NCBI GenBank assembly: GCA_003485765.1
Contig: DNHS01000011.1
Location: forward strand, 94,277 to 152,998
Source of the DNA: Candidatus Omnitrophota bacterium
Lineage (GTDB): Bacteria > Omnitrophota > Gorgyraeia > Gorgyraeales > Gorgyraeaceae
Direction of reading: 5' to 3'
Length of the DNA stretch: 58,722 nucleotides
Shown one piece after another: positions 9,766 to 44,223 of the stretch. The notes under the pieces were generated by a model, which had not been told where the DNA came from, searched no databases, and saw only the letters and a program-made list of their open reading frames with translations. The first letter of the stretch is position 1; every line of letters begins with the position of its first letter. A program made the position numbers and the translations under genes.

Positions 9766-11348
9766 TGTTATGGAGTAGCGGAGCGAAGCTCCGCGCCTTT
9801 ATATTAATTTTATCTTTTATTTTTTTGGCTCCTTGTATCCTTGAAGCATCGCCTTCGGTTGATGTGCCTTTGAGGCATTGGAGCTATGACGCTATTGAAA
9901 AACTCGCCATCATAGGACTTTGCGATATAGCTGATATTGGCATTCGTCCTGTCTCCCGCATAAAAATGGCTTATATCGTAAAAACAGCCATTGATAAAGC
10001 CCGCGATTATGATAAAGAATTTGACTGGAATGAACAGGATTACCTGGAAACGCTTTTAAATAAACTGATAGATGAATTCAGGATTGAGCTCGTCAGTATA
10101 GGCGTTGAGGTTGCCAGCACCTTTAACCAGCCTCTCCCAAAAAATACACTAAAGATTCTGAATGACGTAAAGATTGAAAAAGTATATGCCAAGCTTGACA
10201 AAGATCGCATGCTTTTTGAAAATAAAGACGGTTGGATTCTAAAAGACGGATTTAACGCCAGGATTAAAGCCACTGCGTGGGCTAAATTATCTGAATTATG
10301 CGCCTTTTCAATTACGCCGGGCATAAGATATTCTTCTGAAGACACTGATGTTAATATTGAAGACGCTCATTTGAGAATTAATCCTACAGGCTGGAATACC
10401 GAATATGCTATCGGCCGATCTTCCATGTGGTGGGGGCCAGGTTTTCACGGCTCAATCCTTATGACTGACAATGCATTTCCCATGGACACCTTTAGGATTA
10501 ACAATATCTGGCCTTTCAGGCTTCCCTGGATTTTTAAGAACATGGGCCGATGGAGCGGAACATGGTTTATATCAAGGCTAGAGAAAAAATTCAACCCCTC
10601 ATATGCCATGTTTTCAGGATGGAAGTTAGACTATATTCCGGCTGAATTCTTAAAATTTGGCGTAGGCCATATTATGATGTTCGGAGGCAAGGGCGTTAAT
10701 GGGTATGGTTTTCATGATTTCATAGGAAATAGCTCTCTTTTCTTCAGCTCAGGCGGCGGAGCAGATGACCCGGAAAACCATATCATGTCCTGGGACGCTC
10801 AACTATTCTTGAGGCGTATAGACAGATTTTTGCCCATAGCAACAGGCGCCAAGCTTTATACAGAATGGGGCGCGGAAGATGAATCAAAGAGTATTCCAGT
10901 AGATCTTGCGTCTATAACCGGCGCATATTTTACAGATGTTTTTAAAATCCCTGGTTTTGACGTAAAAGCTGAGATTGCCAGGTTTCATAAGATTTTTTAT
11001 ACGCATTTTAAATATATATCAGGCTATATGCATAAAGGGAACTTTATAGGCCATCATGCGGGAGGGGATTCAGAAGATGTATCGCTCTCCGGAATATTTA
11101 ATTTTCCGGATGAATATAAATTCAGCGCTACTTTCAGCCATATGAGGCGCGGCCTTACTAAAGCCTTTATAGAAACCACAAATCAAATAAGATTAGAATT
11201 CAGCCTTACTGATGCTTTAAAAACGTACAACATAAAGGACGTTGAAGTAACGCTTTTTTACGAACTTGATGATATTACTAACTTAGAAAACGCCGGATCA
11301 ACCGCTAATAATCATATCATTGGCGCCGAAGTCACCAGAAAGTTTTAA
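9765..11348 (+). CDS. Capsule assembly Wzi-family outer-membrane beta-barrel protein
   Basis: Signal peptide, W-YDAIEKLA..G helical N-domain, GRSSMWWGPGFHGS..TDNA motif, C-terminal ..EVTRKF; ATG 9765 overlaps upstream TAA (track start 9750). Confidence 0.75.
   Translation: MLWSSGAKLRAFILILSFIFLAPCILEASPSVDVPLRHWSYDAIEKLAIIGLCDIADIGIRPVSRIKMAYIVKTAIDKARDYDKEFDWNEQDYLETLLNKLIDEFRIELVSIGVEVASTFNQPLPKNTLKILNDVKIEKVYAKLDKDRMLFENKDGWILKDGFNARIKATAWAKLSELCAFSITPGIRYSSEDTDVNIEDAHLRINPTGWNTEYAIGRSSMWWGPGFHGSILMTDNAFPMDTFRINNIWPFRLPWIFKNMGRWSGTWFISRLEKKFNPSYAMFSGWKLDYIPAEFLKFGVGHIMMFGGKGVNGYGFHDFIGNSSLFFSSGGGADDPENHIMSWDAQLFLRRIDRFLPIATGAKLYTEWGAEDESKSIPVDLASITGAYFTDVFKIPGFDVKAEIARFHKIFYTHFKYISGYMHKGNFIGHHAGGDSEDVSLSGIFNFPDEYKFSATFSHMRRGLTKAFIETTNQIRLEFSLTDALKTYNIKDVEVTLFYELDDITNLENAGSTANNHIIGAEVTRKF
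9775..9794 (+). repeat. GTAG-led mini-hairpin (GCGGAGC-GAA-GCTCCGC) inside the Wzi signal-peptide codons
   Basis: GTAGCGGAGCGAAGCTCCGC: perfect 7-bp stem, GAA loop. Confidence 0.55.
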
Positions 11349-11369
11349 ATAGAGGTGATAAAAAAACCT

Positions 11370-11397
11370 TTCAAAATACAATAAGTTGTGGTATACT
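11370..11397 (+). promoter_or_regulatory. Putative sigma70 promoter with extended -10, for the PilZ gene
   Basis: TTCAAA-16-TATACT with TGn extension, in an intergenic gap. Confidence 0.5.
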
Positions 11398-11430
11398 TAA
11401 TTCCAATAGCTAATGAAGGAGGGGGCGAAG

Positions 11431-41941: not shown

Positions 41942-42322
41942 ATGCGAGGATTTACGTTGGTAGAGACAGTGATAGGAATAGTAGTGATAGGGATCATAGC
42001 GCTTGGATTGTTCGCTACTTTTACAGGCGTATTTACAAATGCTGTCAGGGATGAGGTGGTGACTGTTGCTACAAGTTTGGCAAAAGGAGAAATGGAGCGC
42101 GTAACACGCCTGAGCTTTGCAAGTGTAGTTGATCAAAATAGAGGAACTCCTGTGAGTTTCGGAGGGAATTTTACTAATTATTCCTGGCAGATAAGAGTAG
42201 ATGCTGTGCCAGTGGCTATTGCCAGCGATCCGGGTATGGCTCAGTATAAACAGGTAGAATCTCGTGTCACAAATCCGATGGTAGGGGATATCAGCTTAAA
42301 GACGATCGTGACGAATAATTGA
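41942..42322 (+). CDS. Minor pilin (PilV/GspI-like)
   Basis: MRG|FTLVETVIGIVVIG; A..LA...ME pattern; track start 41882 translates the palindrome. Confidence 0.8.
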   Translation: MRGFTLVETVIGIVVIGIIALGLFATFTGVFTNAVRDEVVTVATSLAKGEMERVTRLSFASVVDQNRGTPVSFGGNFTNYSWQIRVDAVPVAIASDPGMAQYKQVESRVTNPMVGDISLKTIVTNN

Positions 42323-42323
42323 A

Positions 42324-42824
42324 ATGAAAAAAGAAAAAGGTTTTACTTTAATAGAAGTAATTATAGTAATAACAATAGTAGGGATTGTTTCAGTTATAAT
42401 AGGATCCATGCTACTGGGGGTTGTGAAGGCATGGACGTTTAAGTTGAACAGGAATGATATATTATGGGACGGAAGGCTTGCTATGGACAGGATGACAAGA
42501 GAAATCAGGACAATAAAAAATTCTACAAGTGTTACTACGGCCTCAGCTGCGCAGTTCAGGTTTACTGATACAGGAAATAAAGACATAACATATAGCCTGA
42601 GCAGTACAAATTTAAACAGGACTGAAAACGGCACTGCGAATTTATTGGCTGCAGATGTTTCAGCGCTTACTTTTACTTATTATAATTCAAGCGATGCTGT
42701 TATCCCCAGTCCTGCGGTCAGTCCATCTGCGACAGATATAAGAAGGGTAAGGATCAATCTTACACTTACAAAGAATGGAGAAAATGTTTATTTACAATCA
42801 GATGCTTCGACAAAGAATTTTTAG
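42324..42824 (+). CDS. Minor pilin (PilW/GspJ-like)
   Basis: KEKG|FTLIEVIIVITIVG; AMDRMTREIR; LTFTYY; VRINLTL. Confidence 0.82.
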   Translation: MKKEKGFTLIEVIIVITIVGIVSVIIGSMLLGVVKAWTFKLNRNDILWDGRLAMDRMTREIRTIKNSTSVTTASAAQFRFTDTGNKDITYSLSSTNLNRTENGTANLLAADVSALTFTYYNSSDAVIPSPAVSPSATDIRRVRINLTLTKNGENVYLQSDASTKNF

Positions 42825-44223
42825 ATTTTTTGCCAGCCCTGGCAGGTCTAAAGAAAAGCCTCGCCGATTCGAGCGGGCACGGTGTCCTGCGCAGGCTGAG
42901 GCCGTTCGGCACGAAATAATTTTAGCGGTCCGCTACGGTTTACGGCTCGTCCGCCTCGCTGGGGCGTCCGAGCGTCTTTTCGTAGGCCTGCCAGGGCTGG
43001 CAAGATATAATATTTCTCGTACCAAAGGCATTTCTTTAGTAGCTGTAGTTATTGTAATGCTGATAGTTTCTACGCTGGCGTTACTGATGGCGTCTTTTAT
43101 GTCGTCCGGGAACATTTCAGCAATCACAGACATGCAGGCGGAGCAGGCGTTATATATAGCATCTGCAGGTATGGAGTGTTATCTTGAGCTTTTAGAGGCA
43201 GATTCAGACTGGTCAACTCCGCCTACAGTTTTTACAAATCAGATATTTGGCGCCGGGACATTTACCATTACTTATGCGAATCAGACAGCAGATTCCATAG
43301 ACATTACCAGCACAGGAAAAGTTATTGGATGGGATGGGAATTCAGTCCAGAGAGTTATTGTTCAGCATGTTACAAAGGAAGCTGGCGCAGGAACAGCGTT
43401 TTCCGATTTCGCGATATTTTATGGAGGGGGAGATGGTACGATCGAAAGCGAAATTAAAAAAGAACAGACAATCACAGGCGATATTTTTGTGAAAGGAAAT
43501 CTGGATATAGGAAAGAATTGCACAATAACCGGTAATGTCTCAGCTACAGGTAGCATAACTGTTGGAAGCGGCACAAATATTTCAGGAAGCACTACCCCAA
43601 ATGCTACTCAGCCTGCAAATCAGCCAACGCTGACTACTACATATTATGATAGTCTGATTACAACTGCTTCTGGCCAGCCAGCTGGGAATAGGACATTCGA
43701 GGCAGAAGCGATTTCAGGAACTGTATATATAAACGGCAATGTGACAATAAAGGATTATATAAACGGCTCAGGCACAATAGTTGCCACGGGTTCAGTTGAT
43801 ATAAAAAGCAATGTAGATATCGGGAGCAATATTACTATTATCTCGGATGGGAGTTTGCTTATGAGGATTAATGGGACAGTAGGCAAGAGTGTGTTTTTTT
43901 ATTCCTCTTCCGATATTGAATTGAAGGCAGGTATTGTTCTTGGCAGCGGAGCTGGTTCAGGAGAAGGTGTGGTTTTATTGTCGCCTGGAGATATCAAGTT
44001 AGGCGATAATACTACTTTGACAGGATTTATATTTGGAGATGACGTAGAGATAGGAGAAAATCTTACATTGACAGGCAATCTTGGCGGCAACAGGCTTGAT
44101 ACTTTGGATGAAGGAGCGGTTATAATTAAAAACAATGCAAAGGTAAATTACGGCTCTATAAATGGGTTCAACTCCAACGCGGCAATAACTATCACAACTT
44201 CTTTATGGCAGGAAACATTGTAG
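42802..44223 (+). CDS. PilX/GspK-like pilin with C-terminal beta-repeat domain; leader carries a 174-bp in-frame insertion
   Basis: TKG|ISLVAVVIVMLIV (no Glu5, PilX-like), QALYIASAG; G.V.I/GN.T repeats; nearest in-frame ATGs upstream of the cleavage site are 42802, 42784 and 42775. Confidence 0.72.
   Translation: MLRQRIFRFFASPGRSKEKPRRFERARCPAQAEAVRHEIILAVRYGLRLVRLAGASERLFVGLPGLARYNISRTKGISLVAVVIVMLIVSTLALLMASFMSSGNISAITDMQAEQALYIASAGMECYLELLEADSDWSTPPTVFTNQIFGAGTFTITYANQTADSIDITSTGKVIGWDGNSVQRVIVQHVTKEAGAGTAFSDFAIFYGGGDGTIESEIKKEQTITGDIFVKGNLDIGKNCTITGNVSATGSITVGSGTNISGSTTPNATQPANQPTLTTTYYDSLITTASGQPAGNRTFEAEAISGTVYINGNVTIKDYINGSGTIVATGSVDIKSNVDIGSNITIISDGSLLMRINGTVGKSVFFYSSSDIELKAGIVLGSGAGSGEGVVLLSPGDIKLGDNTTLTGFIFGDDVEIGENLTLTGNLGGNRLDTLDEGAVIIKNNAKVNYGSINGFNSNAAITITTSLWQETL
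42830..43003. mobile_element. 174-bp REP-doublet/MITE-like element with 21-bp terminal inverted repeats
   Basis: TTGCCAGCCCTGGCAGGTCTA...TAGGCCTGCCAGGGCTGGCAA (1 mismatch); each arm is itself a hairpin; GTAG at 42982; GC-rich; 174 = 58 codons. Confidence 0.7.

What the first reader, a model, noticed from the sequence alone, without database searches (positions are those of the whole stretch)
9775..43003. Synthesis: at least four repeat classes are read in frame in envelope-biogenesis genes
Seen: insert-like repeats in wzi (signal peptide), waaA, lpxK, lpxL-ELM1 (twice), a GT9, the GT-C (twice) and two prepilin leaders. I noticed none inside pyrG, kds, clpP, serA, purA or hppA. Inference: an RPE-like route to protein-loop diversification, concentrated in surface-building enzymes. 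This may reflect tolerance (loops, cleaved leaders) or selection for envelope variation. Candidate undescribed system; the mobilising enzyme would be elsewhere in the genome.
Basis: inference. Interest (0 to 1): 0.7.

Follow-up and report, generated by a model that had tools for sequence, protein, structure and literature searches.

The report
Small repeats translated inside Omnitrophota genes
Short hairpin repeats and 7-base tandem repeats really are read in frame inside cell-envelope genes of this uncultured Omnitrophota bacterium, but they also sit in housekeeping genes and mark poorly conserved protein loops, not an envelope-specific system.

Summary
Observation mostly confirmed. Alignments with relatives show repeat-encoded, lineage-specific segments in wzi (signal peptide), waaA, lpxK, lpxL-ELM1 (two), one GT9, the GT-C (two) and two prepilin leaders. 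Two items fail. The 42-nt palindrome at 41891 lies upstream of the real pilin start. The AGGCTCA tract at 16297 encodes a peptide conserved in all 20 orthologues.

There are two kinds of repeat. One is REP/MITE-like palindromes, which are multi-copy and mostly intergenic elsewhere. The other is heptanucleotide tandem arrays: period 7 gives 59 tracts in 0.86 Mb, against 8 for period 6 and 2 for period 8.

The envelope-enrichment reading is not supported. Over 66 kb of the organism's own contig I count 10 inserts in 44.8 kb of envelope genes and 2 in 19.9 kb of other genes (p=0.23). Its own ProRS and IspG carry inserts, and relatives carry the same heptamer families in ProRS and IspG and hairpins in QueD. 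Low conservation predicts inserts (median identity 75% against 85%, p=0.006), also within envelope genes. The kds, hldE, lptB and sugar-nucleotide genes have none.

In-frame REP/RPE and heptamer repeats are published. What is less described is that a few fixed loops are refilled again and again.

The parts
9761..9797 (+). REP-like hairpin (GCGGAGC-GAA-GCTCCGC, 9778-9794) translated as WSSGAKLRA in the n-region of the Wzi signal peptide
   Evidence: L167 lacks exactly 30 nt here and L168 has them; the segment is present in 5 close Wzi relatives and absent from the other close relatives aligned. L168 holds 4 copies of this hairpin, 3 of them intergenic.
13876..13931 (+). About 8 degenerate heptamers (ACGAAYS) in WaaA, encoding TNDESRITNDERRATSDEQ
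   Evidence: AlphaFold2 model has pLDDT below 50 at residues 298-303, in a loop between strands 288-291 and 316-319.
15245..15281 (+). Heptamer array (GGGTATA GGGCATA GAGCAGA GAGCAAA x2) in the LpxK C-terminal variable loop
   Evidence: It shares a 14-mer with the GT-C tract at 40348.
16297..16316 (+). AGGCTCA x3 in the LpxL-ELM1 linker; encodes the conserved peptide LGSRLKARA, so it is not a recent insert
   Evidence: the peptide is conserved in all 20 orthologues (53-90% identity).
16699..16733 (+). ACGAACG-like heptamer tract in the LpxL-ELM1 variable segment. It replaces a longer segment found in other lineages.
   Evidence: L002 and L018 carry the same unit at this site.
17075..17108 (+). 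Perfect octamer array GAGCGCCA x4.2 in LpxL-ELM1, encoding RERQSARAPERQ
19384..19414 (+). GTAG-tagged hairpin at the junction of the GT4-GT9 fusion gene and the GT4 gene (stop/start region, probably not coding)
   Evidence: a contig in run X11 lacks about 30 nt here.
22682..22709 (+). Perfect 28-nt GTAG palindrome translated as part of CRGRSRPSPT in a GT9 heptosyltransferase
   Evidence: L003 has a different 31-residue insert at the same loop.
37708..37749 (+). Intergenic nested palindrome between pilC and the major pilin gene
38924..38989 (+). Nested palindrome translated inside the YfhO-like GT-C (about 22 residues)
   Evidence: absent from L083, L084, L087 and L142; L088 and L082 hold other elements at the same place; copies in 9 other loci.
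40348..40376 (+). Heptamer remnant (CAGAGAS CATAGRG) in the GT-C C-terminal variable loop
   Evidence: L088 has a CAGCTKT x6 array and L082 a 17-residue palindromic insert at this loop.
41377..41397 (+). GGGTGAA x3 spanning the ribosome-binding site, the GTG start and the first codons of a prepilin leader
41891..41932 (.). 42-nt palindrome, intergenic and not part of the prepilin leader. Other copies in the window: 5567-5608, 26264-26307, 30472-30513, 52113-52155.
   Evidence: the gene call puts the serA start after the 52113 copy.
42825..43008 (+). 184-nt MITE-like element with 26-nt inverted ends, read in frame in the long leader of a minor-pilin-like gene
   Evidence: Copies lie at other sites in L001 (between GT9 genes), L164 (intergenic), L006 and L082.
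21316..21352 (.). 35-37-nt palindrome ATGTTACAAAAC...GTTTTGTAACAT, intergenic; a second copy lies across the window start (1-21)

Best explanation
The window holds members of two genome-wide populations of small non-coding repeats that are common in Omnitrophota.

- Palindromic REP/MITE-like hairpin elements: GTAG-tagged hairpins, nested palindromes, and a 184-nt element with inverted ends.
- Tandem arrays of 7-nt units (occasionally 8-nt), about 30-50 nt long.

Both kinds arise or land in DNA without regard to gene function. This step is inferred. The palindromes probably move by transposition. The arrays probably arise by slippage, with copying or recombination between arrays.

Inside genes, only copies that meet three conditions survive: they keep the reading frame, they contain no stop codon, and they fall in a structurally permissive place. 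Such places are surface loops, inter-domain linkers, signal-peptide n-regions and cleaved prepilin leaders. The same few permissive 'slots' are therefore filled again and again, with different repeats in different lineages.

The apparent concentration in envelope genes has two causes. Three quarters of the window's coding length is envelope genes. And the genes that were hit are the least conserved ones.
For: SHOWN:
- Presence or absence, or replacement, at the flagged sites between genomes about 90% identical in DNA.
- Recurrent use of the same loops by unrelated inserts: LpxK residue ~213 has 5 different inserts; the WaaA loop holds a different heptamer family in almost every lineage; ProRS residues 238-252 hold 23 inserts, nearly all different, among 105 orthologues.
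- Hairpins and heptamer arrays occupy the same slots interchangeably. At the ProRS slot the own genome has a hairpin, L161 has an AGGCTCA array and L162 a GCAAAGA array.
- The elements are multi-copy, and most other copies are intergenic.
- Period-7 excess, and heptamer units shared between loci of one genome (17% against 5% of pairs, permutation p=0.0015).
- Inserts in housekeeping genes ProRS, IspG, QueD and the histidine kinase.
- No significant envelope enrichment, while low conservation does predict inserts.
- The WaaA insert is a low-confidence loop in the AlphaFold2 model.
- L001's third heptamer unit reads AGGGCAG where AGGGCAT would give an in-frame TAG, which fits stop-codon filtering.
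- Published precedent: intragenic REPs in flexible loops, with N-terminal cases often being mis-annotated starts (PMC3733652).
Against: - A moderate (about 2-fold) envelope bias cannot be excluded: 0.22 against 0.10 inserts per kb.
- The mobilising mechanism was not shown. No transposase was examined and no target-site duplication was seen at the LpxK residue-213 site.
- Array replacement between close relatives (the WaaA loop: ACGAACG in the window, GCATAGG in L001, AACCTTA in L002) is too abrupt for point mutation plus slippage. It needs recombination or copying, which I could not resolve.
- Translation of the inserts is inferred from open frames, not from protein data.
Confidence: 0.72

Rival explanations
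1. Selected envelope diversification. The repeats are recruited, or preferentially kept, in surface-building genes to vary the envelope.
For: - Within the 58.7-kb window all 10 validated inserts are in envelope genes. The chance of this under uniform spread is about 0.05, given that envelope genes make up about 0.745 of the window's coding length (my arithmetic from the gene table).
- Wzi homologues in Smithella also carry heptamers near the N-terminus.
- The loops turn over quickly.
Against: - The bias is not significant once about 8 kb of adjacent genes is added (p=0.23).
- ProRS, IspG, QueD and the histidine kinase are also hit.
- WaaA, LpxK, LpxL and GT9 act on the cytoplasmic face of the membrane (established knowledge), and the Wzi and pilin inserts lie in leaders that are cleaved off, so the mature surface does not change.
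- Conserved envelope genes have none.
Confidence: 0.08
2. Contingency loci. Because 7 is not a multiple of 3, a change in array copy number would frameshift the lipopolysaccharide and pilus genes and switch them on and off.
For:
- The arrays sit in glycan and pilus genes.
- Logan contigs of conspecific strains break near the waaA tract.
Against: - The arrays are mostly degenerate, not perfect.
- They lie mid-gene or at the C-terminus of waaA and lpxK, which are essential in model Gram-negative bacteria (established knowledge).
- Every array found inside a syntenic LPS gene in the ~20 relatives aligned is in frame. The one apparent break, in L011 lpxK, is a masked run of N.
- The same arrays also occur in ProRS and IspG.
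Confidence: 0.05
3. Active slot writing. A lineage-specific process, not yet identified, copies cassettes of about 30 nt (heptamer arrays or hairpins) into fixed positions, so that a slot is maintained whatever sequence fills it. It could be templated, recombination-based or enzyme-driven.
For: - Abrupt replacement of whole arrays between genomes about 90% identical.
- Units shared between unlinked genes of one genome. L001's waaA array shares an exact 13-mer and an exact 10-mer with its lpxK array (sequences).
- Arrays have similar lengths, mostly about 4-5 units.
- Hairpins and arrays are interchangeable at one slot.
- Earlier scan notes on other Omnitrophota genomes reach a similar idea (these are leads only).
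Against: - The mosaic identity around the WaaA loop fits ordinary homologous recombination between divergent alleles.
- Survivorship at permissive loops explains the fixed positions without any targeting.
- No enzyme or template was identified.
Confidence: 0.15

Closest known systems
Intragenic GTAG/CGTC-tagged REPs and Rickettsia palindromic elements (Di Nocera et al. 2013, PMC3733652; RPEs as reviewed in PMC10969869)
   Same: - Short palindromic, multi-copy elements that are mostly intergenic.
- A minority are read in frame in unrelated proteins, adding roughly 10-30 residues in loops or at N-termini.
- Some N-terminal cases are really extragenic because the start was mis-called. That is the case here for the 42-nt palindrome at 41891.
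   Different: - A different phylum and different sequences.
- Nested architecture.
- The same loop is hit repeatedly by different elements across lineages.
- The palindromes share their slots with heptamer arrays.
- No associated transposase was examined here.
Heptanucleotide long simple-sequence repeats: cyanobacterial STRR, TAACTGA repeats (MacGregor 2015, PMC4679880), GGGAATC/GGGGAYT repeats (Rehm 2015, PMC4692102), and the general heptamer excess attributed to Mrazek et al. 2007 in both papers
   Same: - Tandem 7-nt units, typically about 4 copies.
- A genome-wide family with shared units, and a period-7 excess.
- Occasional translation when the orientation is free of stop codons. The CAGCTAT/CAGCTKT units seen here in L013 and L088 differ by one or two bases from the reverse complement of TAACTGA and give LSAISYQ-like peptides.
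   Different: - The published repeats are mainly intergenic or in hypothetical proteins.
- Here they sit in frame at orthologous loops of essential enzymes (WaaA, LpxK, LpxL; ProRS and IspG in relatives).
- Several unit families coexist in one genome and replace each other at a slot.
Bacterial MITEs (review PMC10969869)
   Same: The 184-nt element has 26-nt inverted ends, a structured GC-rich interior, no coding capacity of its own, copies at different sites in relatives, and an in-frame fusion with a host gene.
   Different: - The target-site duplication and the parent insertion sequence are unknown.
- It is retained open in frame in three lineages inside a cleavable leader.

Membership tests
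REP / intragenic REP (RPE-like) | Short (20-40 nt) palindromic stem-loop | tested here: met
   22682-22709 (14-bp stem), 9778-9794, 19384-19414, 38924-38989.
REP / intragenic REP (RPE-like) | GTAG or CGTC tag at one end | tested here: inconclusive
   GTAG is present at 22682, at 19384 and in the giant-gene copy. The wzi hairpin has GTAGCGG. The GT-C nested palindrome and the 42-nt palindrome have no such tag.
REP / intragenic REP (RPE-like) | Multi-copy, dispersed and mostly intergenic | tested here: met
   for the wzi hairpin, the nested palindrome, the 184-nt element and the 42-nt palindrome. The exact GT9 palindrome had no second copy in the DNA held, only relatives of the GTAGGGGA...TCCCCTAC type.
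REP / intragenic REP (RPE-like) | Presence/absence polymorphism between close relatives | tested here: met
REP / intragenic REP (RPE-like) | A RAYT (Y1/HUH) transposase in the genome | not testable with these tools
Earlier scan notes report a RAYT-like gene in related genomes; this is a lead only.
MITE | Terminal inverted repeats, 50-500 bp, non-coding, multi-copy | tested here: met
   (pair I9: 26-nt arms, 88% complementary).
MITE | Target-site duplication and a matching parent insertion sequence | not tested
   The flanks of the 184-nt element were not compared with an empty site at base resolution.
Heptanucleotide long simple-sequence repeats / STRR-like | Tandem 7-nt units, 3 or more copies, with a period-7 excess over neighbouring periods | tested here: met
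   59 tracts at period 7, 8 at period 6 and 2 at period 8 in 0.86 Mb.
Heptanucleotide long simple-sequence repeats / STRR-like | The same unit recurs at several loci of one genome | tested here: met
   (p=0.0015). In the window, waaA matches lpxL-ELM1 at 16699, and lpxK matches the GT-C tract at 40348.
Phase-variable contingency locus | Perfect repeat tract with out-of-frame length variants that switch the gene | tested here: not met
   The arrays are mostly degenerate. All arrays in the syntenic LPS genes of the ~20 relatives aligned are in frame. Population reads were not available as raw reads.
   p=0.23 by length and p=0.71 by genes. Conservation explains presence (p=0.006). Housekeeping genes are hit.

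The most novel reading that the evidence does not exclude
Omnitrophota (and perhaps Smithella and other lineages with a period-7 excess) keep a small set of protein-loop 'slots'. These slots are repeatedly rewritten by copying cassettes of about 30 nt between unlinked genes. The cassettes are heptamer arrays or hairpins drawn from the genome's own repertoire. This would be a sequence-independent, templated or enzyme-driven process that has not been described, as opposed to passive survival of random insertions.
Probability: 0.15. Interest if true: 0.75.

Novelty: new variant of a known kind. Interest (0 to 1): 0.4.

Why it matters
- It corrects an attractive but unsupported idea. These repeats are not an envelope-variation device. 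They are a general feature of how selfish or slippage-born DNA is tolerated in proteins of a little-studied phylum.
- For annotation, it explains odd GC-rich, low-complexity loops and over-long N-termini in Omnitrophota gene calls.
- It flags permissive loops in WaaA, LpxK, LpxL, ProRS and IspG that could be used for engineering insertions.
- The rapid refilling of fixed slots, by unit families shared between unlinked genes, bears on the unexplained heptamer-repeat excess in bacteria. Sets of closely related metagenome-assembled genomes make that question testable.

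Tried and rejected
I extended the organism's own contig by look-ups instead. The 10 kb upstream (L158) had no relatives fetched for it and was not scored in the gene table.
- A GC-island scan was too unspecific to find inserts.
- Laying Logan contigs of conspecific runs gave fragmented unitigs that break near the waaA tract and at other places in this cluster. There was no base-level polymorphism, and no raw-read runs were offered.
- L158 against L159 looked like two strains but is the same sequence (99.995% identical).
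- The apparent LpxK truncation in L011 is a masked run of N, not a frameshift.
- Hairpin-like stretches at 2392, 8908 and 20230 encode motifs I recognise from my own knowledge of these enzyme families, and their genes show no indels against relatives. The stretch at 38302 encodes a peptide conserved in relatives. I did not count any of them as inserts.
- The first site-alignment attempt, with 45-nt flanks, failed for most loci. It was repeated with 150-nt flanks.
- The exact GT-C product (with the TTG start) is not on record, so there is no independent-assembly check for 38-41 kb.
- The IspG search of representatives gave only distant homologues. They were used only to show that the loop varies in length.

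Full report
SETTING

The window is an all-plus-strand, 40% GC stretch of an uncultured Omnitrophota genome from groundwater. Its genes, by Pfam and gene calls, run in this order:
- lptD, sugar-nucleotide genes, wzi, a PilZ gene, murI and queD;
- the lipid A/core cluster: waaA, lpxK, an lpxL-ELM1 fusion, a GT4-GT9 fusion, GT4, a deacetylase and three GT9 genes;
- hldE, kdsB, pyrG and kdsA/D/C;
- a histidine kinase and three receiver genes;
- pilB/C, pilins, a YfhO-like GT-C and a GT2, minor pilins and pilMO;
- a second lpxL, lptC/A and lptB;
- tig, clpP, an aminotransferase, serA, an HMGL-like gene, purA and hppA.

All genome-wide statements below are therefore limited to DNA I could fetch by other routes.

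CHECKING THE OBSERVATION

I fetched syntenic loci from relatives:
- L001 and L002, about 90% identical in DNA over 11.6-25.2 kb, and L003-L027 at greater distance;
- L081-L092 and L142 over 24.4-47.7 kb;
- L161-L168 for the window's two ends.

A plain blastn comparison with L001 and L002 puts the window's extra DNA at flagged places in waaA and the GT9. It also shows inserts of the relatives' own in lpxK and lpxL-ELM1. Protein alignments of every gene confirm repeat-encoded, lineage-specific segments in:
- the Wzi signal peptide;
- WaaA and LpxK;
- LpxL-ELM1, at two sites;
- one GT9;
- the GT-C, at two sites;
- the leader of the prepilin at 41386;
- the long leader of the pilin-like gene at 42775.

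At base level, L167 lacks exactly 30 nt at the wzi site. The sequence of 9488-17790 is identical in two other assemblies, one from a different sequencing run, so these tracts are not assembly artefacts.

Two items fail.
- The 42-nt palindrome at 41891 lies upstream of the homologous start (MRGFTLVE; relatives start MKGFTLIE). It is intergenic, like its other copies in the window.
- The AGGCTCA x3 tract at 16297 encodes LGSRLxARG, which is conserved in all 20 orthologues. It is old, fixed sequence.

WHAT THE REPEATS ARE

There are two kinds.

Palindromes.
- GTAG-tagged hairpins at 22682 and 19384.
- A 'GGAGTAGCGG' hairpin in wzi. It has four copies in one relative, three of them intergenic.
- A nested palindrome in the GT-C, with copies in nine other loci.
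- A 184-nt element with inverted ends. Its copies sit at different places in L001, L164, L006 and L082.
- Strong hairpin windows are 2-4 times more frequent than in shuffled sequence.

Tandem arrays of 7-nt units.
- In 0.86 Mb of Omnitrophota loci, period 7 gives 59 tracts, against 8 for period 6 and 2 for period 8.
- About three quarters of these tracts lie in long open frames (my count from the listing).
- Units are shared between unlinked genes of one genome more often than between genomes: 17% against 5% of pairs within one mismatch, permutation p=0.0015.
- In the window, waaA and the lpxL-ELM1 site at 16699 share ACGAACG. LpxK and the GT-C site at 40348 share GCATAGG/GCAGAGA.

So 'at least four repeat classes read in frame' is fair: heptamers, GTAG-type hairpins, nested palindromes, the 184-nt element, and a single octamer array.

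SLOTS

The same loops are used again and again.
- LpxK residue ~213 carries five unrelated inserts in five relatives, and none in the window.
- The WaaA loop before the FLLDTIGEL motif holds a heptamer tract in most lineages aligned, with a different unit in almost every lineage that has one.
- Among three genomes about 90% identical, that loop reads ACGAACG (window), GCATAGG (L001, the same family as L001's own lpxK array) and AACCTTA (L002).
- Local identity is mosaic. Around the loop the window resembles the more distant L004. Replacement may therefore be allelic recombination or copying between arrays; I could not decide between them.
- In an AlphaFold2 model of WaaA (mean pLDDT 82), the insert is a loop with pLDDT below 50 between two strands.

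IS IT ENVELOPE-SPECIFIC?

I fetched 10 kb on each side of the window from the organism's own contig. The downstream genes could be scored against relatives. No relatives were fetched for the upstream 10 kb, so it is not in the gene table.

Just downstream of the window, two housekeeping genes carry inserts.
- ProRS has a hairpin-encoded segment (TGGHSTKIVECPTVA). It lies at a loop where 105 orthologues show 23 inserts, nearly all different. These include HSLRSGTGHG, the same peptide that fills an LpxL-ELM1 slot in L009 and L013.
- IspG has a 9-residue hairpin-encoded insert in a loop of variable length.

Relatives carry heptamer arrays of the window's own families in ProRS and IspG. One example is AAAGAGC AAAGAGC ATAGAGC AGAGAG in the ProRS of L162. 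Relatives also carry GTAG hairpins in QueD and an insert in the histidine kinase.

Scoring 63 genes (64.7 kb) with orthologue-validated inserts gives:
- envelope genes: 10 inserts in 44.8 kb;
- other genes: 2 inserts in 19.9 kb;
- binomial p=0.23; Fisher test on genes p=0.71.

Conservation does predict inserts. Median identity to equally distant relatives is 75% for insert-bearing genes and 85% for the rest (Mann-Whitney p=0.006). The same holds within envelope genes alone (p=0.007). Envelope genes that are well conserved have none in any relative: kdsA-D, hldE, lptB and nine sugar-nucleotide genes. The same is true of three moderately conserved transferases, GT4, GT9a and GT9c.

Within the window alone the 10:0 split has a chance of about 0.05 under uniform spread (my arithmetic from the table).

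The enzymes that were hit work on the cytoplasmic face of the membrane (established knowledge). The Wzi and pilin inserts lie in cleaved leaders. Neither would vary the mature surface.

PHASE VARIATION?

The arrays are mostly degenerate. Every array found inside a syntenic LPS gene in the ~20 relatives aligned is in frame; the one apparent break is a masked run of N. In L001 the third heptamer unit reads AGGGCAG where AGGGCAT would create an in-frame TAG. That fits filtering for stop-free arrays. Raw reads were not available.

COMPARISON WITH WHAT IS KNOWN

- Intragenic GTAG/CGTC REPs, and Rickettsia RPEs read in frame in unrelated proteins, are published. The authors argue that the elements sit in flexible loops and that many N-terminal cases are mis-annotated starts (PMC3733652; PMC10969869).
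- The heptamer excess in bacteria is also published, as are STRR, TAACTGA and GGGAATC repeats. TAACTGA repeats have been reported within open reading frames (PMC4679880; PMC4692102).
- Earlier notes of this scan report in-frame heptamer arrays in purine, pyrimidine, lysine, miaB and trp/his genes of Omnitrophota, including this genome. I treated them as leads.

VERDICT

The enrichment and 'undescribed system' interpretation is not supported. The phenomenon is a new variant of known kinds. The rapid refilling of fixed loop slots by shared unit families is its least explained and most interesting aspect.

Noticed in passing
L167:5246-7129 and L168:3891-6650 (orthologues of window 5624-6931): The UDP-glucose 6-dehydrogenase of two close relatives carries an intein (627 and 919 residues; Intein_splicing, with a faint LAGLIDADG hit in L168). 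The window's copy (435 residues) has none.
   Followed up: no
window 13618-13930: waaA has mosaic identity. At 13618-13800 the window is only 67-80% identical to L001 but 87-93% to L002. At 13798-13930 it is closest to the more distant L004. This suggests recombination between lineages around the loop.
   Followed up: partly
L156:20872-20907 (about 8.5 kb downstream of the window end): A perfect 36-nt GTAG palindrome (GAACCGTAGGGGACACTTAAGTGTCCCCTACGGTTC) is read in frame near residue 272 of a 4,040-residue multi-enzyme giant protein. It was not checked against orthologues.
   Followed up: no
L045:13797-13829, L047:13829-13857, L051:13771-13796, L074:13771-13810: Smithella/Syntrophaceae Wzi homologues carry in-frame CCATCCA/CTATCAG heptamers near the N-terminus, and long CTTAAAA/CTTAAAT arrays lie between genes nearby. 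The heptamer habit therefore extends beyond Omnitrophota.
   Followed up: partly
window 5567-5608, 26264-26307, 30472-30513, 41891-41932, 52113-52155; L156:18150-18195: A 42-nt near-perfect palindrome (AACAACTTGACATTTCAACATTGTTGAAATGTCAAGTTGTT) sits exactly at stop/start junctions of co-directional genes. That makes six copies in 78 kb. It may act as a terminator, a processing site or an operator.
   Followed up: partly
window 15320-17275 and 17299-19389: The LpxL-ELM1 fusion and the GT4-GT9 fusion are conserved across most Omnitrophota loci fetched.
   Followed up: no
window 52142-52171: The mechanical ORF for serA starts 30 nt too early because the 42-nt palindrome is open in frame. Gene calls start at 52172 (528 residues, the same length as in all relatives).
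   Followed up: yes
L002:9840-9973 (lpxK C-terminal region): L002's LpxK has a compound insert of about 40 residues. It contains a REP-like piece, a duplicated KDAVKLK segment and an AAAGCTT heptamer array, which suggests a duplication created during insertion or repair.
   Followed up: no
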